Notes: generated by a model not told the origin, from the sequence alone. A stretch of 64,000 nt of DNA from Rhodoferax sp. (GCF_039922535.1 NZ_JBDTEM010000147.1:523-64522), one strand, 5' to 3'. Positions 1,243 through 37,085 are shown, numbered from the stretch's first letter. Numbers and translations: made by a program.

Positions 1243-2658
1243 TCAAGCGGTGGCCATCAGGCGCCGCACTGCTGCACGGGCGGTATGGCGTAGCTCGGCC
1301 ACGTCCAGCCCCTGCAGCACGTCGTCGCGCACCACCTGCTGCCCGGCCACAAACAGCGCCTTGAGCCGGGGCCGCCCGCCGCTGACCACTGGGCCCAGCG
1401 CCACGTCGTGCAGGCCAAAGTAGCGAGGGTCGTCCAGCGCATAAATTGCCAGATCCGCCGCCATGCCGGGGGCCAGCGTGCCCACATCGCCCAGGCCCAG
1501 CACGGTGGCACCGCCCGAGGTACCCCAGGCGACCACATCGTCGGCACTCACTGCCACACGCTCGCCCTCCCCGACCCCGCCCCGGAATACCGGCTGGCTC
1601 TTGTCGCCCTGCGCGGCGCGCTGCATCAGCCAGGCGGCGTGCACTTCCGACACCATGTCGGCGGCTTCGTTGGAGGCTGCGCCGTCCACCCCAATCGAGA
1701 TCGGCACGCCCGCGGCCTGCAAGGCCATCACCGGCGCGGTGCCGCTGCCCAGGCGGCCATTGCTTTGCGGGCAATGGGCAATGCCGGTGCGGGTGCTGCC
1801 CAGCAGGGCAATTTCTTCGGCATCCAGCTTGACCAGATGGGCGAACCACACGTCCGACCCCAGCCATTCGTGCTCGGCCACAAAGCGCACCGGCGACAGG
1901 CCGTGCATGGCGTGCACGCTGTCCTGGTAGCCCACGGTTTCCGACAAATGCGAGTGCAGGCGGATGCCGAGTCGGCGGGCGGTGCGGGCGCATTCCCGCA
2001 GCTCGGCCGGGGCCAGCGAGTAAGGAGGCGTGGTGGGGGCCATGACGACGCGGCGCATCGCATCCGGCGCGGGGTCGTGGTAGCGGGCGGTGAGGCGCTC
2101 CACATCGGCCAGGTAGGCATCCAGCGACTCGGGCCGCATGGCCTGGGGCAGTTCGGCCTCCAACTGGCGGGTGCGGGTGGCACCACCGCGGCACAACACA
2201 AAGCGCAAGCCCATGCGCTCGGCCTCCTCGAACAAAATCGCCGAGCCGTCGAACGGCATGCCGGGGTAGTACAGGTAGTTGTGGTCGGCCACTGTGCCGC
2301 AGCCGGATAAGGCCAGCTCCAGCAGACCGATGCGCGCCGCGGTGCGGAACAAGTCCTCGTCAAACGCCGCCCGGAAGCGGTACGGCGTGGCCGCCAGCCA
2401 GGCCGTCAGTGGCAGGTCGATACCGCCCGCATCCCCCTTGAGCAGCGACTGGAACAGGTGGTGGTGGGTGTTGACCCAGCTGGGGTAGATGACGCAGTCG
2501 GTCGCGTCGATCACCGTCTCGCCCGGCAGCGGGGTCAGCGGGCCGATGGCCTCGATGCGCTTGCCGCGCAGGCGGATGTCGGGGCCCGCAATCCGCGAAG
2601 CGGCACCGGGTTGGCCGCTGAGGATGGCGGCTGCATTGCGTATCAAAGTGGTGCTCAT
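1243..2658 (-). CDS. Metal-dependent amidohydrolase, 8-oxoguanine/isoxanthopterin deaminase-like (AtzB clade)
   Basis: NTHHHLFQS, LHSHLSET, HCPQSN and DGAASN motifs. True start MSTTLIRNA at 2658 overlaps the permease stop (ATGA). Confidence 0.85.
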   Translation of the reverse strand: MSTTLIRNAAAILSGQPGAASRIAGPDIRLRGKRIEAIGPLTPLPGETVIDATDCVIYPSWVNTHHHLFQSLLKGDAGGIDLPLTAWLAATPYRFRAAFDEDLFRTAARIGLLELALSGCGTVADHNYLYYPGMPFDGSAILFEEAERMGLRFVLCRGGATRTRQLEAELPQAMRPESLDAYLADVERLTARYHDPAPDAMRRVVMAPTTPPYSLAPAELRECARTARRLGIRLHSHLSETVGYQDSVHAMHGLSPVRFVAEHEWLGSDVWFAHLVKLDAEEIALLGSTRTGIAHCPQSNGRLGSGTAPVMALQAAGVPISIGVDGAASNEAADMVSEVHAAWLMQRAAQGDKSQPVFRGGVGEGERVAVSADDVVAWGTSGGATVLGLGDVGTLAPGMAADLAIYALDDPRYFGLHDVALGPVVSGGRPRLKALFVAGQQVVRDDVLQGLDVAELRHTARAAVRRLMATA

Positions 2659-3446
2659 GTTGCGCTTTCGTGCCAGTGGCCCAGGGCCTTTTTGGATAAC
2701 CAAACCATGCTGATAAACAGCAATACACCGGTCACCGAAATCAACACCAGCGCGGCGAACAGGCGTGGGATGTTGATCTGGAAACCGGCCTGCAAAATTT
2801 CGTATGCCAGGCCCGCGCCGGTGCCGCCCGTACCGGCCACAAACTCGGCCACCACCGCGCCGATCAAGGCCAGCCCGCTGGAGATGCGCAGGCCGCCAAA
2901 GAAGAACGGCAGCGCACTCGGGATGCGCAGCCGCACCAGGGTTTGCCAGCGGCTGGCGCCGTTCAGCTTGAACAGATTCAGCAGCCCAGGATTCACGCTG
3001 CGAAGCCCCAGCACGGTGTTCGACAAAATGGGGAATAGCGTCACCAAAGTGGCGCACAGCACCAGCGCGAAGGTCGGGTTCTTCACCCAGATGATGATCA
3101 ACGGCGCAATCGCCACCACCGGCGTTACCTGCAGCAGGATGGCGTAGGGGAACAGGCTGGCCTCGATGAAGCGGTTCTGCACAAACAAGAAGGCGCCGGC
3201 CACACCCAGTAGCACCGCCAGCGCAAACGCCAGCACCGTGACCTTCAGCGTTACGCCCAGCGCACGCAGCAGCGAGGGGCCGTCAGTGAGCAGGGTTTGG
3301 AAGATGTCGCTGGGCTTAGGCACCAGGTACACCGGCACCTGCCAGGCCGTGCACAGCGCCTGCCAAATCAGCAGCAACACGATGCCGAAGCTGATCGGCG
3401 CCAGCCAGTTGAGAACGCCGGGGCGTTGCAGCAAAGGGGTTGTCAT
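2655..3446 (-). CDS. ABC transporter permease, NitT/TauT family
   Basis: Six hydrophobic segments and an EAA-like loop (LFKLNGASRWQTLVRLRIPSALP). AAGGAG RBS upstream of ATG 3446. Confidence 0.9.
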   Translation of the reverse strand: MTTPLLQRPGVLNWLAPISFGIVLLLIWQALCTAWQVPVYLVPKPSDIFQTLLTDGPSLLRALGVTLKVTVLAFALAVLLGVAGAFLFVQNRFIEASLFPYAILLQVTPVVAIAPLIIIWVKNPTFALVLCATLVTLFPILSNTVLGLRSVNPGLLNLFKLNGASRWQTLVRLRIPSALPFFFGGLRISSGLALIGAVVAEFVAGTGGTGAGLAYEILQAGFQINIPRLFAALVLISVTGVLLFISMVWLSKKALGHWHESAT

Positions 3447-3459
3447 GGTCATCACTCCT

Positions 3460-4269
3460 TCAATGGGCCGACATCAGCAGGGCGGAGAGTTCGCGGCAGT
3501 GGTCGGCGAACGCGGGGGACAGGCGGTAGGTCTCGGAGCGGTCCGGCTCGTCCAGCGGCACATCGGCCATCAGCCGGCCCGGCCGGGCCGCCATCATCAC
3601 CACGCGGCTGGACAAGAACACCGCCTCGTAAATGCTGTGCGTGACGAACACCACCGTCAGGCCCCGCGCCGCCCAGAGCGCGCGCAGGTCGGCATCGAGC
3701 TTGTTGCGGGTGAACTCGTCCAGCGCACCAAAGGGCTCGTCCATCAGCAGCACATCTGGCTCGGTGACCAAGGCACGGGCAATGGACGCACGCATCTGCA
3801 TGCCGCCCGACAGCTCGCGCGGATACGACTTGCCGAACGCTGCCAAGCCCACCTGCGCCAGTGCCGTGGCCACGCGGGCATCGGCCTCTGCGCGCGGCAC
3901 GCCGTGCAGGTCCAGCGGCAGGCGCACGTTGGCAGCGACCGTGGTCCAGGGCATTAGCGTGGCCTCCTGGAACACCATGGCCGTTTTCAGACCCGACTTG
4001 GCCGGGCTGTCTTGCCCGGCCCAGCGCACATGGCCATGCGAGGGCGACTCCAACCCGGCAAACATCTTCAGCAGCGTGCTCTTGCCGCAGCCGGAGGGGC
4101 CAAGCAGCGAGACAAAGTCACCGCGCTGGATGCGCAGGCTCAGGCGCGACAAGGCATGGGTGCCGTTGCCGTAGGTCTTCTCCACCTGGTTGGCGTGGAG
4201 CACGGTGTCGGCATCGGGCGGTAAAGACTGCACCGTGGGCACAGGAATAGGCAGGGCTTGCATCAGCAT
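3460..4269 (-). CDS. ABC transporter ATP-binding protein, NitT/TauT family
   Basis: Walker A GPSGCGKST, LSGGMQMR signature, Walker B LLMDEPF. Confidence 0.95.
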   Translation of the reverse strand: MLMQALPIPVPTVQSLPPDADTVLHANQVEKTYGNGTHALSRLSLRIQRGDFVSLLGPSGCGKSTLLKMFAGLESPSHGHVRWAGQDSPAKSGLKTAMVFQEATLMPWTTVAANVRLPLDLHGVPRAEADARVATALAQVGLAAFGKSYPRELSGGMQMRASIARALVTEPDVLLMDEPFGALDEFTRNKLDADLRALWAARGLTVVFVTHSIYEAVFLSSRVVMMAARPGRLMADVPLDEPDRSETYRLSPAFADHCRELSALLMSAH

Positions 4270-4281
4270 GGTGCGTACTCC

Positions 4282-5334
4282 TTAGGCCGCCACAGGGTGG
4301 ATGGGAATGCGCCGGTTGCCCCGGTGCACCTCTTCCTCGCCATGGGCTTTGAGCAGATCGAGCAATTGCTTGCGGATCATCAGGCCGGGGCGGTCGCTGG
4401 GCATGTGGAATTCTTGCCGGCGCGTGGTGTCGATGCAGGCATCGAAATCGGTGGCTTCCAGGATGTCGCGGTCTTCGGCGGTGATGGCTGCGTCCCAGTC
4501 AATCAGCTCCTGCGTGCTGCACTGCTCTTCGCTGTCGTTGCGGTACAGCCACTGCACCAGCATCAGGCGGTCGTCGCTGATCGGCGTCGCGCAGTTGTAG
4601 ATGATGTGGTCGATGCCGCTGTCCGGGTACTGGCAGCCAAAGCGGCGCGAAAACGGCAGGTAGTAGCGGTTCGTCAAATGCCGCTGCGTCATCGGCGTGG
4701 TGGTGCCGGTGACGCGGTGGCCAGCCGGCGGGTTCTTGATCGGCACCAGGGTCTCGGCCTGGAAGCCGTAGTCGGTGTCATGGATCTCGTACTTTTGCGG
4801 CACCGGTTGATCGATGTCGCCAAAGTTGGCCTTGTGCACGAAGCTGAAGTGCGAGTTGTCGAAGGCGTTTTCCATCACCCGCACCGGGCTGGTTTTCCAC
4901 TCTTCATAAAACTGGAAGATGCGGCGGTAGCCGGGCGCACCGTCTTCGGGGAAGTGCGGAATATCGCGCAGCGGGTCTTCCAGCGCCACCCACACGTAGC
5001 CATATTTCTCCTGGCAGTGGAAGGACGGCACCTTGGCTCCGGCGGGGATATTGCCATCGGGATTTTGCGGAATGCGCACGCAGCTGCCGCCGCAGTCATA
5101 GGTCCAGCCGTGGTAGCCGCAGACGATGTGGTCGCCCTCGACAAAGCCTTTGGACAGCTTGGCCGTGCGGTGGCAGCAGCGGTCGCGCAGGGCAGCGGGC
5201 GTGCCGTCCTGCTTCTTCCACAGCACTAAATTTTCGCCTAGCAAGGTGAAGGGTTGCGGGCCATCGTCCAGCTGGTGAATGGGCATCAGCGCGTACCAGA
5301 AGCGGCGCAGAACGGGTTGTTGGGTTACTAGCAT
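4282..5334 (-). CDS. Rieske non-heme iron oxygenase alpha subunit (VanA/NdmA-like demethylase/hydroxylase group)
   Basis: Rieske motif RCCHR...CGYHGW and mononuclear-Fe motif ENAFDNSHFSFVH. Likely start MLVTQQP at 5334. Confidence 0.9.
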   Translation of the reverse strand: MLVTQQPVLRRFWYALMPIHQLDDGPQPFTLLGENLVLWKKQDGTPAALRDRCCHRTAKLSKGFVEGDHIVCGYHGWTYDCGGSCVRIPQNPDGNIPAGAKVPSFHCQEKYGYVWVALEDPLRDIPHFPEDGAPGYRRIFQFYEEWKTSPVRVMENAFDNSHFSFVHKANFGDIDQPVPQKYEIHDTDYGFQAETLVPIKNPPAGHRVTGTTTPMTQRHLTNRYYLPFSRRFGCQYPDSGIDHIIYNCATPISDDRLMLVQWLYRNDSEEQCSTQELIDWDAAITAEDRDILEATDFDACIDTTRRQEFHMPSDRPGLMIRKQLLDLLKAHGEEEVHRGNRRIPIHPVAA

Positions 5335-5434: not shown

Positions 5435-6442
5435 TTACGGCATGACCTTCAGGTCTTTCACAAACTGCGTCGTGTAGGCCTTTTTCCAGTCCACACCGGG
5501 CTTGAGCAGACCAGCGGAGAGCATGAACTTGTAGGTTTGCTCCCAGCGCGCGTCGGTCATCACGCCCACGCCCTGGGTAGCGGCATCACCGCCGTCCACG
5601 GCCTTGACTTCCTTCATGCGTTTCACGGCGAAGGCGATCAGGTCGTCTTCCATCTTCGGGTTGTCTTTTTTAATCAGCGCGTTGCCGGGTGCGGGGTCGG
5701 CCAGATAGCTTTTCCAGCCTTCCATCGAAGCGCGGACAAAGCGGGCCACCACATCCGGTTTCTCGGCCACCATCTTTTGCTGCGTGACGATAGTGGTGCC
5801 ATACGGCGGATAGCCCTGGTCGCCCAGCAGGAAGAAGTTGGCTGGCACATTGCTCTTCATGGCCATGAACGGCTCGGACGACAGGTAGGCGCTTTGGGCC
5901 ACGTTCTTGTCGACGATGAAGGGCTGCAGATTGAAGGTGTAGGGCCGCACCTGGTCCATGCTGTAGCCGTACTTGCCCAGCAGCCAGGGCAGCCAACTGG
6001 TCTGGGCGGAGGTGTTGGCCAGGATGGTCTTGCCCTTCAGGTCGGCCAGGCTCTTCACATCGTCGTGCGCCATGATGCCTTGCAGGTCTTTCTGGAACGA
6101 GGCCGCCACCGTTACCACCGGCAGGCCTTTTTCCACTGCGTTCAGGGTCTGGATGTCGTAGCCCATGATGAAGTCGGCCTGGCCCGCCGCCAGCAGCTGG
6201 ATGCCGTTGACCTGCGGGCCACCCATCTTGATGGTTACGTCCAGCCCGTACTTTTTGTACAAGCCGGTGGCCACCGCCTGGTAGAAGCCGCCGTGCTCGG
6301 CCTGGGCGTACCAGGATGTGAGCATGGTCACCTTGTCCTGCGCCCAGGCGGCGCTGGTGAGGGTGGTGGCAGCCAGGGTGGTGGCTGTCAGGGCCAGGCG
6401 GGAAAACCACCGGCGATAGAGAGGTTGGGGTTGGCGATGCAT
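5435..6442 (-). CDS. ABC substrate-binding protein, NMT1/THI5-like
   Basis: Signal peptide (...AAWA-QD); TSWYAQAEHGGFYQAVATGLYKKYGLDV and GGPQVNG are typical of NMT1/THI5-like SBPs. Confidence 0.9.
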   Translation of the reverse strand: MHRQPQPLYRRWFSRLALTATTLAATTLTSAAWAQDKVTMLTSWYAQAEHGGFYQAVATGLYKKYGLDVTIKMGGPQVNGIQLLAAGQADFIMGYDIQTLNAVEKGLPVVTVAASFQKDLQGIMAHDDVKSLADLKGKTILANTSAQTSWLPWLLGKYGYSMDQVRPYTFNLQPFIVDKNVAQSAYLSSEPFMAMKSNVPANFFLLGDQGYPPYGTTIVTQQKMVAEKPDVVARFVRASMEGWKSYLADPAPGNALIKKDNPKMEDDLIAFAVKRMKEVKAVDGGDAATQGVGVMTDARWEQTYKFMLSAGLLKPGVDWKKAYTTQFVKDLKVMP

Positions 6443-6615
6443 GGCTATCCGTCCTAAAGCTAAATTGCTGTGGAAAGACGAAAGCACCGCGCAGAGACAG
6501 GCCCAGAACACCGCACCAGGGCGCGGATGGCCAACAGCTGTTCTCCGTGGCGTTCACACATGAACACCAATGCACGCGCCGGGCGGCGTGTGCATGCGAC
6601 GGCACTTCCGTCACC

Positions 6616-6672
6616 GGAGCAATGACCGACAACCGACACCTGTAAGGGCGGGTTGCTGACAGCTTCTACTCC
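6616..6672 (-). ncRNA. Xanthine riboswitch (NMT1 motif RNA)
   Basis: Minus strand reads GGAGTAGAAGCTGTCAGC-AACC..GGTT-GTCGGTCATTGCTCC. This matches the NMT1/xanthine aptamer architecture as I recall it (GGAGUAGAAGC..CAGC-stem-..AUUGCUCC), with the P1 GGAG/CUCC pairing. It sits upstream of an NMT1-like SBP and a Rieske oxygenase. Confidence 0.8.
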
Positions 6673-6683
6673 ACGTACGGCCA

Positions 6684-6699
6684 TGCAAATGGTGTGCCA
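6684..6699 (-). promoter_or_regulatory. Sigma54 -24/-12 promoter
   Basis: TGGCAC-ACCAT-TTGCA on the minus strand is a perfect consensus. The predicted +1 falls at the first nucleotides of the riboswitch. Confidence 0.8.
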
Positions 6700-35903: not shown

Positions 35904-37085
35904 TCAGTCCAGCGATGCCGCTGGGCCGAAGAATTCATAGCGGGTTTGCGCCTCGGGCACGCCCAATGCGCGCAACTGCTTTTTCACCTGGCGCATAAAG
36001 GGCTTGGGGCCCAAAAAATACGCGTCCACATCGCGCGAGGCGGGCAGCCACTGGGCCAACTGTTGCGGCTCCAGGTGGCCCACGGCATGCGGTGCGTCTT
36101 CAGAACCGCTGTGCTCGTCATAGGCATAAAAGCGCTGCAACTGCGGGTGCTTGGCCAGGCGCGCCTCGATGGCGTGGCGGAAGGCATGCACATGGCGATT
36201 GCGCGCACAGTGGATGAAGTGCACCGGCCGTGTGCCCTGCAGCGCCGCGTCCAACATCGCCAACGTGGGCGTGATGCCAACGCCGCCGCTGATCAGCACC
36301 ACGGGGCGCTCACCGGCCGCCAGCACGAATTCGCCTGCGGGCGGAAACAGCTCCAGCACATCGCCAACCTGTACCTGGTCATGCAGATGGTTCGACGCCA
36401 GGCCGCCAGCCTCGCGCTTGACGCTGATGCGGTAGTCCACACCATTGGGGGCGGCCGACAGCGAGTAGTTGCGGCGAATCTCCTGGCCGTTCACCATAAG
36501 GCGCAGGCCGATGTACTGGCCCGGCACAAATTCGGCCAGCGCGCCGCCGTCTTGCGGCTGTAGGTAGAACGAGGTGATTTCGCTGCTCTCGACCTCTTTG
36601 CGGGCCACGCGGAAGGCCCGCGCACCGCGCCAGCCGCCCGGGGCGGCAGCGGTATCGGCATAGATTTTTTCTTCGGCCCCGATCAGGATGTCGGCCAACT
36701 GGCCATAGGCCGCGCCCCATGCAGCGATGACTGTATCGGTAGCGATCTCGGCGCCCAGCACTTCGCGGATGGCGCGTAGCAGGCAGGCGCCGACCACGGG
36801 GTAGTGTTCGGGCTGGATCTGCAGCGACACATGCTTCTGGATGATCTGCGTCACCAGGCCGCCCAGCTGCTCCAGCTTATCGATATGCCGGGCGTACATC
36901 AGCACACCATTCGCCAGCGCGCGCGGCTGGTCACCGCTGGCTTGGTTCGCCTGGTTGAAAAACGGCCGTACCTCGGGGTGTTCGGCCAGCAGGATTTTGT
37001 AGAAATGCGTGGTCAGCGCCTCGCCGCCGCTCTCCAGCAGGGGCACGGTGGATTTGACGATGGCGCGTTGTTCAGGGGTCAGCAT
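35904..37085 (-). CDS. hmp: Flavohaemoglobin (NO dioxygenase)
   Basis: Globin domain (FNQANQ, IIQKHVSL, HYPVVG), FAD domain RRNYSLS and NAD domain LISGGVGITP. Confidence 0.96.
   Translation of the reverse strand: MLTPEQRAIVKSTVPLLESGGEALTTHFYKILLAEHPEVRPFFNQANQASGDQPRALANGVLMYARHIDKLEQLGGLVTQIIQKHVSLQIQPEHYPVVGACLLRAIREVLGAEIATDTVIAAWGAAYGQLADILIGAEEKIYADTAAAPGGWRGARAFRVARKEVESSEITSFYLQPQDGGALAEFVPGQYIGLRLMVNGQEIRRNYSLSAAPNGVDYRISVKREAGGLASNHLHDQVQVGDVLELFPPAGEFVLAAGERPVVLISGGVGITPTLAMLDAALQGTRPVHFIHCARNRHVHAFRHAIEARLAKHPQLQRFYAYDEHSGSEDAPHAVGHLEPQQLAQWLPASRDVDAYFLGPKPFMRQVKKQLRALGVPEAQTRYEFFGPAASLD

What the first reader, a model, noticed from the sequence alone, without database searches (positions are those of the whole stretch)
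4282..5334. Rieske oxygenase of unknown substrate with no reductase partner in the operon
Seen: intact Rieske and mononuclear-Fe motifs, with no ferredoxin or reductase among the five co-transcribed genes. Established: Rieske N-demethylases of methylxanthines (NdmA/B) need a separate reductase. Inference: a molybdenum-independent purine hydroxylase or N-demethylase that borrows electrons from elsewhere. The riboswitch context points to xanthine-like ligands.
Basis: inference. Interest (0 to 1): 0.55.

Follow-up and report, generated by a model that had tools for sequence, protein, structure and literature searches.

The report
Riboswitch-controlled Rieske oxygenase, reductase elsewhere
This is an intact but biochemically uncharacterised iron-sulfur oxygenase in a xanthine-riboswitch-controlled uptake-and-deamination operon for a guanine-like ring compound; the gene association is already published, its missing electron donor is encoded inside the same operon in about a quarter of related bacteria, and its substrate is still unknown.

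Summary
Window 5334-4282 (- strand) encodes an intact 350-aa Rieske/VanA_C oxygenase. It is the second gene of a five-gene operon behind a xanthine (NMT1) riboswitch. No ferredoxin or reductase lies in the operon or its flanks.

This is not a new kind of system:
- Weinberg 2017 and Yu & Breaker 2020 already list Rieske (hcaE), PDR-type reductase, PRK12393 amidohydrolase and NMT1/tauA genes as the riboswitch's regulon, with function unproven.
- Of 69 related operons that can be judged, 18 carry a VanB/PDR-type reductase in the operon. The enzyme is therefore an ordinary two-component Rieske monooxygenase.
- This genome has vanB elsewhere, next to vanA.

The nearest characterised relatives all act on purine-like scaffolds: SxtT/GxtA and NdmA/B, at about 30% identity.

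- The partner amidohydrolase is the orthologue of PDB 2PAJ (732 bits), which I recall as the in-vitro isoxanthopterin deaminase.
- The genome has a canonical molybdenum xanthine dehydrogenase, xdhAB.
- A sister clade pairs the Rieske gene with a guanine-deaminase-like enzyme.

My best reading is a monooxygenase acting with the deaminase on an imported guanine-like pteridine or purine. I favour ring hydroxylation slightly over N-demethylation. The substrate is unresolved.

Another note on this same window (e1-5187096) covers the operon as a whole.

The parts
6684..6699 (-). sigma54-type -24/-12 promoter element, TGGCAC-N5-TTGCA
Evidence: Read directly. A GGC-N8-xGC element lies 13-14 nt upstream of the aptamer core in 57 of 72 related loci.
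6612..6676 (-). xanthine (NMT1-motif) riboswitch aptamer, RF03054
   Evidence: 47.3 bits against a gathering score of 36. It is the only copy found in the genome. A matching core motif lies upstream of the operon in 70 of 80 related loci.
5435..6442 (-). periplasmic NMT1/THI5-like substrate-binding protein of the ABC importer (an alternative GTG start is at 6511)
   Evidence: Pfam NMT1 at 132 bits. The nearest solved structures are ABC binding proteins, including the formylaminopyrimidine-binding ThiY, 3IX1. The N-terminus carries a twin-arginine-like signal, RRWFSRL...AWA.
4282..5334 (-). Rieske non-haem-iron monooxygenase, oxygenase component (the finding)
   Evidence: It belongs to clade A of the riboswitch-associated Rieske family.
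5110..5178 (-). Rieske [2Fe-2S] ligands C53, H55, C72 and H75
   Evidence: Sequence. Invariant in 127 homologues.
4834..4860 (-). D159 (bridging) and the Fe(II) ligands H162 and H167, in the motif DNSHFSFVH
   Evidence: Alignment to NdmA and SxtT. Invariant.
4471..4494 (-). pocket and ligand segment D281...T285-A-E-D288. D288 is the carboxylate Fe ligand. D281 and T285 align with NdmA N282 and F286.
   Evidence: D281 is invariant in clades A, B and C. Position 285 is Thr in clades A and C and Val in clade B.
3460..4269 (-). ABC transporter ATPase
   Evidence: Pfam ABC_tran at 120 bits; similar to taurine and SaoA-type ATPases.
2655..3455 (-). ABC transporter permease
   Evidence: Pfam BPD_transp_1 at 90 bits.
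1243..2658 (-). PRK12393 amidohydrolase, orthologue of PDB 2PAJ (an isoxanthopterin-type deaminase)
   Evidence: NF009059 at 750 bits against a cut-off of 543. 2PAJ matches at E 3e-219, 732 bits, full length. Its start overlaps the permease stop codon.

Best explanation
The gene encodes the terminal oxygenase of a two-component (class-IA-like) Rieske monooxygenase. I expect a homotrimer by analogy with NdmA, SxtT and VanA.

Operon and regulation:
- It is co-transcribed with an NMT1-type ABC importer and an isoxanthopterin-type deaminase.
- Transcription starts at a sigma54 (nitrogen-control type) promoter.
- Expression is shut off by a xanthine/urate-sensing riboswitch.

Proposed function (inferred): the module scavenges nitrogen from an imported guanine-like heterocycle, that is a 2-amino-4-oxo-pyrimidine ring fused to a second ring. 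The deaminase removes the 2-amino group. The Rieske enzyme uses O2 and two electrons from NAD(P)H to hydroxylate the second ring or a substituent on it.

Most likely single reaction, at about 0.35: C-H hydroxylation of a pteridine. Examples are 7-hydroxylumazine to 6,7-dihydroxylumazine, or pterin to isoxanthopterin. This would be an O2-dependent counterpart of the molybdenum lumazine dehydrogenase of Cupriavidus.

Electron supply (inferred): a PDR/VanB-type FNR-[2Fe-2S] reductase encoded in trans, with the genome's own VanB as the visible candidate.

Shown: domain content, metal ligands, operon structure, the riboswitch, conservation of the module, and in-operon reductases in relatives. Inferred: substrate, reaction, electron donor and regulatory logic.
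For: Fold and ligands:
-.

The module is conserved:
- The order binding protein, Rieske, (ATPase, permease), amidohydrolase is seen in essentially all 80 related loci. The amidohydrolase is present in 75 of 80.
- The riboswitch core is present in 70 of 80.

The deaminase points to pteridines:
- It scores 732 bits to 2PAJ. A Pseudomonas paralogue inside a Cupriavidus-cluster-I-like pterin locus scores only 458 bits.
- Both subfamilies are thus tied to isoxanthopterin deamination. For 2PAJ this rests on Hall 2010, from memory, and on Weinberg 2017. For LA1_0140 it rests on Doi 2025, by synteny only.
- Doi 2025 shows that pterins are degraded to xanthine through 7-hydroxylumazine and 6,7-dihydroxylumazine. 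That would make a xanthine OFF switch an end-product feedback.

The pairing with a 2-amino deaminase is a family trait:
- Sister clade C pairs the Rieske gene with an NMT1 protein and a CDA-fold deaminase whose best match is B. subtilis guanine deaminase.

The reductase:
- An in-operon FNR+Fer2 reductase occurs in 18 of 69 loci.
- This genome's vanA-vanB pair lies on contig C355. Its VanB is 39% identical to the Pseudomonas operon reductases and 51-52% identical to the Oxalobacteraceae ones.
- VanB drives SxtT and GxtA in vitro.

Other points:
- The sigma54 element is conserved.
- D281 is an invariant acidic pocket residue, at the position of NdmA N282.
Against: - No substrate has been tested for any member of this family.
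- The steps downstream of 6,7-dihydroxylumazine in Cupriavidus are an Amidohydro_2 isomerase and a UbiD-type decarboxylase. They were not found here. There is no UbiD-family hit in this 90%-complete genome, nor in three other carriers, two of them rated 99-100% complete.
- The genome's paired Amidohydro_2 genes belong to the LigI/LigJ protocatechuate pathway.
- The nearest characterised relatives hydroxylate sp3 C-H next to nitrogen (N-methyl groups, saxitoxin), not aromatic C-H.
- The riboswitch ligands shown in vitro are purines. Lumazines are not mentioned among the compounds tested.
- The identification of 2PAJ as isoxanthopterin deaminase, and its substrate list, rest on my memory of a paper I could not open.
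- VanB has its own partner, VanA, so its use by this enzyme is conjecture.
Confidence: 0.55

Rival explanations
1. N-demethylase. The importer takes up methylated guanines or xanthines from nucleic-acid turnover or plant alkaloids, for example 7-, 1- or N2-methylguanine. The deaminase makes the methylxanthine. The Rieske enzyme hydroxylates the N-methyl group, as NdmA/B/C do, releasing formaldehyde and xanthine. Xanthine then shuts the operon off.
For: - NdmA and NdmB are among the closest characterised homologues (E-37, E-30).
- The whole neighbouring clade attacks sp3 C-H next to nitrogen.
- The riboswitch binds xanthine but rejects N1-, N3- and N7-methyl analogues. It could therefore tell product from substrate.
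- Relatives carry 2-4 tandem paralogues, as expected for several methyl positions.
- The A and B clades differ at the position of NdmA F286, one of the two residues that differ between the deposited NdmA sequences.
Against: - Identity to NdmA is only about 30%, and the C-terminal substrate domain is poorly aligned.
- No formaldehyde-handling gene recurs in 80 neighbourhoods.
- No NdmD-type reductase was found.
- The 2PAJ orthologue is reported to act on isoxanthopterin and pterin-6-carboxylate only. This is from memory, and I do not know whether methylguanines were tested.
Confidence: 0.25
2. HpxD-like purine ring hydroxylase. This would be a molybdenum-independent oxidation of hypoxanthine, xanthine or guanine at C2 or C8, leading to urate, with urate or xanthine feedback through the riboswitch. 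It is the published working hypothesis and the first reader's first option.
For: - Yu & Breaker 2020 report similarity of the riboswitch-associated Rieske and PDR genes to hpxD/hpxE.
- hpxDE convert hypoxanthine to urate in Klebsiella.
- The pairing of a Rieske gene with a PDR-type reductase is the same in 18 relatives.
- The riboswitch binds xanthine and urate.
Against: - The genome has canonical xdhAB (TIGR02965, 1143 bits) and an OHCU decarboxylase. The route would be redundant.
- An OFF switch triggered by xanthine is the wrong sign if xanthine is the substrate.
- The invariably linked deaminases are of the 2-amino (guanine or pterin) type. The 2PAJ orthologue reportedly does not take guanine or 8-oxoguanine (from memory).
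- I could not obtain an HpxD sequence, so orthology is untested.
Confidence: 0.17
3. Orphan or inactive enzyme. Without a cognate reductase the oxygenase is a non-functional remnant in this lineage.
For: No reductase lies in the operon or the window. The six closest relatives, L001-L006, also lack one in the operon or downstream of it.
Against: - The ORF is intact and all ligands are invariant.
- It is the most conserved protein of the operon. Pseudomonas versus this genome gives 80% identity, against 59-72% for the other four proteins.
- 51 of 69 judgeable operons lack the reductase yet keep the gene.
- A class-IA reductase, VanB, exists in the genome.
Confidence: 0.03

Closest known systems
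Xanthine (NMT1-motif) riboswitch regulon (Weinberg 2017; Yu & Breaker 2020)
   Same: It has the same aptamer and the same gene classes: hcaE-type Rieske, PRK12393 amidohydrolase and NMT1/tauA transporter, with PDR reductase and tsx in relatives. The published view is that these are purine-oxidation genes of unproven function.
   Different: Nothing essential differs. This is one instance of that regulon. This report adds the sigma54 promoter, the A/B/C clade structure, the reductase statistics and the orthology of the deaminase to 2PAJ.
NdmA/NdmB methylxanthine N-demethylases (PDB 6ICK, 6ICL)
   Same: The Rieske + VanA_C architecture, all metal ligands and a purine-type substrate class are shared. 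Matches are E 5e-37 and 8e-30.
   Different: Identity is about 30%. The pocket residues N282 and F286 are replaced by D281 and T285. There is no NdmD-type reductase. The gene is linked to a deaminase and an ABC importer rather than to an alkylxanthine cluster.
SxtT/GxtA (SxtDIOX) saxitoxin hydroxylases (PDB 6WN3, 6WNC)
   Same: These are the best-scoring solved relatives (E 5e-42). They are monooxygenases on a perhydropurine scaffold, have no reductase of their own and are run with VanB in vitro.
   Different: They are biosynthetic cyanobacterial enzymes, about 33% identical, in a different gene context.
HpxDE of Klebsiella (hypoxanthine to urate)
   Same: A two-component Rieske oxygenase with a PDR-type reductase, used for purine assimilation as a nitrogen source.
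   Different: hpxE is adjacent in Klebsiella, whereas no reductase is adjacent here. There is no riboswitch in Klebsiella as far as I know. The sequence relationship could not be tested.
Cupriavidus sp. LA-1 cluster I pterin/lumazine pathway (Doi 2025)
   Same: It contains a hydroxypterin deaminase that appears to belong to the same amidohydrolase family. This rests on a syntenic Pseudomonas paralogue that is 51-52% identical. Xanthine is the pathway's end product.
   Different: There the ring hydroxylations are done by a molybdenum dehydrogenase using NAD+, not by a Rieske oxygenase. The isomerase and the UbiD decarboxylase were not found in this genome.

Membership tests
Rieske non-haem iron oxygenase, alpha-only VanA/phthalate type | Rieske [2Fe-2S] motif CxH-x(15-17)-CxxH | tested here: met
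   C53-x-H55-x16-C72-x-x-H75. Pfam PF00355 at 80 bits. Invariant in 127 homologues.
Rieske non-haem iron oxygenase, alpha-only VanA/phthalate type | 2-His-1-carboxylate mononuclear iron site plus a bridging Asp | tested here: met
   H162, H167, D288 and D159 align with the ligands of NdmA and SxtT. Invariant.
Rieske non-haem iron oxygenase, alpha-only VanA/phthalate type | VanA_C-type catalytic domain and no beta subunit gene | tested here: met
   PF19112 at 62 bits. No small-subunit gene in the operon.
Rieske non-haem iron oxygenase, alpha-only VanA/phthalate type | Dedicated FNR-[2Fe-2S] (PDR/VanB-type) reductase partner | tested here: inconclusive
   None in the operon or window. Present in the operon in 18 of 69 related loci. 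This genome has vanB next to vanA on C355. Functional pairing cannot be tested here.
NdmA/NdmB methylxanthine N-demethylases | Orthology: high identity, shared specificity residues N282/F286 (Q/L in NdmB) and an NdmD reductase | tested here: not met
   About 30% identity. D281 and T285 occupy those positions. No NdmD-like gene.
HpxD hypoxanthine/xanthine hydroxylase | Sequence orthology to Klebsiella HpxD | not tested
   No HpxD sequence could be reached with the tools. The primary paper is not held.
Xanthine riboswitch regulon | RF03054 aptamer above the gathering score, upstream and co-directional, with the published associated gene classes | tested here: met
   47.3 bits against 36. The gene classes match the list of Yu & Breaker. 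Conserved in 70 of 80 loci.
Isoxanthopterin deaminase (partner gene, cog0402) | Close orthology to Sgx9339a (PDB 2PAJ) | tested here: met
   E 3e-219, 732 bits, full length. The cluster-I-type paralogue scores only 458 bits. That 2PAJ is the characterised enzyme is from memory, supported indirectly.
Cupriavidus cluster-I pterin/lumazine pathway | Molybdenum LuDH, Amidohydro_2 isomerase (DHLI) and UbiD-type xanthine-8-carboxylate decarboxylase | tested here: not met
   No UbiD-family hit in this genome (90% complete). The paired Amidohydro_2 genes on C47 are LigI/LigJ. The only MoCoBD_1 enzyme found is XdhB.

The most novel reading that the evidence does not exclude
The riboswitch-associated Rieske family (clades A, B and C), together with its linked 2-amino deaminases, forms an undescribed O2-dependent, molybdenum-independent route. 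It would convert environmental pteridines (isoxanthopterin, pterin, pterin-6-carboxylate) or methylated guanines into xanthine-type products. Some NMT1 aptamers might then sense a lumazine-type or xanthine-8-carboxylate intermediate rather than, or as well as, xanthine. This would assign a function to the most widespread unexplained gene class of this riboswitch regulon.
Probability: 0.3. Interest if true: 0.65.

Novelty: new member of a known kind. Interest (0 to 1): 0.38.

Why it matters
The xanthine riboswitch has a known ligand, but the biochemistry of its regulon is unproven. The authors who described it say that the functions of the associated dioxygenases are not established.

This Rieske family is widespread. 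It occurs in Comamonadaceae, Oxalobacteraceae, Rhodocyclales, Pseudomonas and Moraxellaceae, and 19 of 150 sampled genera of this family carry it. It is also unusually conserved.

Pinning down its substrate would fill a gap in purine or pteridine catabolism. It might also reveal an oxygen-dependent alternative to molybdenum hydroxylases. As a single genomic instance, however, the finding is ordinary. The gene association is published, and the 'missing reductase' is explained by comparison with relatives.

Tried and rejected
- HpxD comparison. I could not obtain a Klebsiella HpxD sequence. Orthology to HpxD is untested.
- Reductase inside the window. The FNR-like hit at window 35904-37085 is a flavohaemoglobin next to a NorR-like regulator, so it is irrelevant.
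- Cupriavidus-type downstream enzymes in this genome. There is no UbiD-family hit. The paired Amidohydro_2 genes on C47 sit with LigB and LigC, so they are LigI/LigJ rather than the isomerase.
- Literature. Searches for Rieske with isoxanthopterin, lumazine or methylguanine found nothing relevant. PDB 6V42, the closest structure to the FAD_binding_4 gene of the extended clusters, has no paper in the library.
- Plasmids and the ESM Atlas gave only generic annotations and distant homologues.
- Single-linkage clustering of all ORFs in the 80 loci lumped the operon genes together and was replaced by targeted tblastn.
- I did not run AlphaFold or fold search. The sequence matches to solved Rieske oxygenases are already unambiguous, and the tools give no pocket geometry.
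- A Thr/Val equivalence between position 285 and SxtT/GxtA 276 was considered and dropped, because an indel makes that alignment unsafe. The equivalence to NdmA F286 has no gap.

Full report
**What is there**

The window comes from a roughly 65% G+C Comamonadaceae draft genome. It has 510 contigs and is 90% complete. The closest relative loci are Rhodoferax and Burkholderiales MAGs at 95% protein identity. On the minus strand lies a compact operon:
- a sigma54-type TGGCAC-N5-TTGCA element, 6699-6684;
- an Rfam xanthine (NMT1) riboswitch, 6676-6612, at 47.3 bits against a gathering score of 36;
- an NMT1/THI5-like periplasmic binding protein, 6442-5435;
- the Rieske gene, 5334-4282;
- an ABC ATPase, 4269-3460;
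- a permease, 3455-2655;
- an amidohydrolase, 2658-1243.

Gene spacings are 100, 12 and 4 nt, and the last two genes overlap in ATGA. No terminator-like site was found between the binding-protein gene and the Rieske gene.

The ATG at 5334 follows a GGAGGAGAG Shine-Dalgarno sequence, and homologues are 337-345 aa.

**The protein**

Pfam finds Rieske (80 bits) and VanA_C (62 bits). The cluster ligands are C53, H55, C72 and H75. The iron ligands are H162, H167 and D288, and the bridging Asp is D159. All align with those of NdmA and SxtT and are invariant in 127 family members.

The best solved relatives are SxtDIOX/GxtA and SxtT (E 5e-42 and 1e-40), then NdmA (5e-37) and NdmB (8e-30). Dicamba, carbazole and ketosteroid oxygenases follow far behind. 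Identity to these is only about 30%, and the C-terminal substrate domain aligns poorly. This is a distinct subfamily, not an orthologue of anything characterised. NCBIfam has no equivalog for it.

**Is the missing reductase real, and does it matter?**

None of the five genes is a reductase or ferredoxin. The only FNR-like gene in the 64-kb window is a flavohaemoglobin.

The 80 related loci show the same module almost everywhere. In Pseudomonas, Rhodocyclales, Moraxellaceae and Oxalobacteraceae a 314-320-aa FNR + plant-type [2Fe-2S] protein follows the amidohydrolase or lies just before it. This is the PDR/VanB architecture, and one example overlaps the amidohydrolase stop codon by 4 nt. It is present in 18 of the 69 loci that have enough flank to judge.

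So the family is a normal two-component Rieske system. Most Burkholderiales carriers, including the six closest relatives, have simply lost the linked reductase or never had it.

This genome encodes vanA-vanB-marR on contig C355. Its VanB is 39% identical to the Pseudomonas operon reductases and 51-52% identical to the Oxalobacteraceae ones. VanB is the surrogate routinely used for SxtT and GxtA. Borrowing electrons is therefore plausible but unproven. In a 90%-complete draft a dedicated reductase could also be unassembled.

**Already known**

Weinberg et al. 2017 noted that NMT1-motif RNAs precede NMT1 genes, dioxygenases and amidohydrolases 'probably related to isoxanthopterin deaminases'.

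Yu & Breaker 2020 showed that the aptamer binds xanthine (about 3.7 uM), urate (about 25 uM) and 8-azaxanthine. It rejects N-methylated analogues and acts as an OFF switch. They listed hcaE, PDR, PRK12393, tauA/NMT1, tsx, pcbC and tadA genes as its regulon. They stated that the dioxygenases' functions are not established and compared them with hpxDE.

(a) Riboswitch and promoter. The riboswitch core motif precedes the module in 70 of 80 loci. Pseudomonas has a second, divergent copy in front of a Tsx-like porin gene. A sigma54-like -24/-12 element sits 13-14 nt upstream of the aptamer core in 57 of 72 cases. That points to nitrogen-limitation control, and so to nitrogen scavenging.

(b) Three clades. 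The family splits as follows:
- Clade A contains the window's gene and is always next to the amidohydrolase.
- Clade B is about 61% identical and occurs as a tandem upstream partner in 34 loci. One further locus has three paralogues and one has four, which include divergent copies.
- Clade C is 57-61% identical and sister to A. In other Comamonadaceae genera it occurs as riboswitch, Rieske, NMT1 protein and a CDA-fold deaminase whose best match is B. subtilis guanine deaminase.

In a sample of one genome from each of 150 genera of the family, 19 had the family and only 2 had clade A. The constant theme is an oxygenase, an NMT1 binding protein and a deaminase of the 2-amino (guanine or pterin) type. 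Both enzymes can be replaced by non-orthologous ones.

(c) The amidohydrolase matches PDB 2PAJ at E 3e-219 (732 bits, full length). It matches 8-oxoguanine deaminases at only about 245 bits. From memory, 2PAJ is Sgx9339a, the 'orphan' isoxanthopterin deaminase of Hall et al. 2010. In a library of pteridines, purines and pyrimidines it accepted only isoxanthopterin and pterin-6-carboxylate. I could not open that paper.

(d) Doi et al. 2025 showed that Cupriavidus degrades isoxanthopterin and lumazine to xanthine. The steps are a pterin deaminase, a molybdenum lumazine dehydrogenase (giving 7-hydroxylumazine and then 6,7-dihydroxylumazine), an Amidohydro_2 isomerase and a prFMN/UbiD decarboxylase.

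Pseudomonas sp. PLMAX carries, besides its Rieske operon, a locus with exactly this content. It has XdhC, an amidohydrolase, a xanthine/uracil permease, UbiX, UbiD, Amidohydro_2 and an IOR-type molybdenum enzyme. That amidohydrolase is a 51-52% paralogue of the Rieske-operon deaminase and scores 458 bits to 2PAJ. So 2PAJ is the orthologue of the Rieske-operon deaminase, and the sister subfamily is, by synteny, the physiological hydroxypterin deaminase.

(e) This genome has canonical xdhAB (TIGR02965, 1143 bits) and an OHCU decarboxylase. No UbiD-family gene was found in it. None was found either in three other carriers, two of them rated 99-100% complete. The paired Amidohydro_2 genes on C47 are LigI/LigJ.

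**Weighing the readings**

All the evidence agrees on a monooxygenase that works with a 2-amino deaminase on an imported guanine-like heterocycle, under nitrogen control and xanthine/urate feedback.

1. Pteridine ring hydroxylation, about 0.35. Candidates are 7-hydroxylumazine to 6,7-dihydroxylumazine, or pterin to isoxanthopterin, which would supply the deaminase's preferred substrate.
   - For: the deaminase orthology, and the fact that pterin catabolism ends in xanthine.
   - Against: the isomerase and decarboxylase are absent from Comamonadaceae carriers, and the riboswitch ligands are purines.
2. N-demethylation of methylguanines or methylxanthines, about 0.25.
   - For: homology to NdmA/B, the aptamer's discrimination against N-methyl analogues, and the multiple paralogues.
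   - Against: low identity, and no formaldehyde-handling genes in 80 neighbourhoods.
3. HpxD-like purine hydroxylation, about 0.17. This is the published idea.
   - Against: it is redundant with xdhAB here, it fits the OFF-switch logic badly if xanthine is the substrate, and it does not explain the obligatory pairing with a 2-amino deaminase.

Pocket positions that align without gaps to NdmA N282 and F286 are an invariant Asp (D281) and Thr in clades A and C or Val in clade B. The two deposited NdmA sequences differ at exactly these two positions. This suggests a polar, NH-rich substrate and different regioselectivity in the paralogues. It does not decide the chemistry.

**Verdict**

The 'no reductase' feature is explained by comparison with relatives. 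This is a new member of a known kind, with a real and testable open question about its substrate.

Noticed in passing
L088 (G000 contig C233:1449-4982), ORFs 1072-2058 and 2058-3128: This genome has a second VanA_C-type Rieske gene (328 aa, 32% identical over the N-terminal half). Its stop overlaps the start of an adenosine/adenine deaminase gene (NF006850, 567 bits). A BMP-family binding-protein gene lies upstream. This is another Rieske-plus-purine-deaminase pair, without a riboswitch hit.
   Followed up: partly
L031:499-5355 and equivalents in about 35 Ramlibacter, Polaromonas and related loci: Extended clusters place three things just upstream of the riboswitch: a creatininase-family hydrolase, a second NMT1-type ABC transporter, and a FAD_binding_4 oxidase close to the uncharacterised PDB 6V42 (E 4e-100). 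Tandem A and B Rieske genes and the deaminase follow. These may be the missing downstream steps.
   Followed up: partly
L039:5418-6233 (-) and its 6363-6419 riboswitch; same layout in L041-L047, L051, L057, L060, L061: Pseudomonas loci have a divergent Tsx-like outer-membrane channel gene with its own second copy of the xanthine riboswitch.
   Followed up: partly
L098-L102 (genomes G040, G093, G069, G066, G138): The clade C architecture is riboswitch, Rieske, NMT1 protein and a 167-aa CDA-fold guanine-deaminase-like gene. It often has a second, divergent riboswitch. It is more common among Comamonadaceae genera than the window's clade A operon (17 against 2 of 150 sampled).
   Followed up: partly
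window 6684-6699 (-) and 57 of 72 related loci: A sigma54-type -24/-12 element sits at a fixed 13-14 nt upstream of the aptamer core. An enhancer-dependent promoter is thus combined with a riboswitch.
   Followed up: partly
window 6573-6590 (-): A terminator-like GC hairpin with a weak T tail lies in the roughly 170-nt spacer between the aptamer and the start of the binding-protein gene. It may be part of the expression platform.
   Followed up: no
G000, G058, G103, G152 (whole genomes): No UbiD-family gene was found in four Comamonadaceae genomes, two of them rated 99-100% complete. These bacteria presumably decarboxylate the ubiquinone precursor with a different enzyme.
   Followed up: no
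L107/L108/L106 (Pseudomonas sp. PLMAX chromosome, about 3.336-3.350 Mb): A locus matches the published Cupriavidus cluster I for pterin/lumazine degradation. It has XdhC, a PRK12393-family deaminase, a xanthine/uracil permease, UbiX, UbiD, Amidohydro_2, LysR regulators and an IOR-type molybdenum enzyme. It co-exists with the Rieske operon in the same genome.
   Followed up: partly
window 4282-5334 compared with the rest of the operon: The Rieske protein is the most conserved product of the operon. It is about 80% identical between Pseudomonas and this Comamonadaceae genome. The binding protein is 59% identical, the ATPase 69%, the permease 71% and the deaminase 67%.
   Followed up: no
L097 (G000 contig C47:2500-14500): A protocatechuate 4,5-cleavage cluster: LigB, a LigC-like oxidoreductase and two Amidohydro_2 genes (LigI/LigJ-like).
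   Followed up: no
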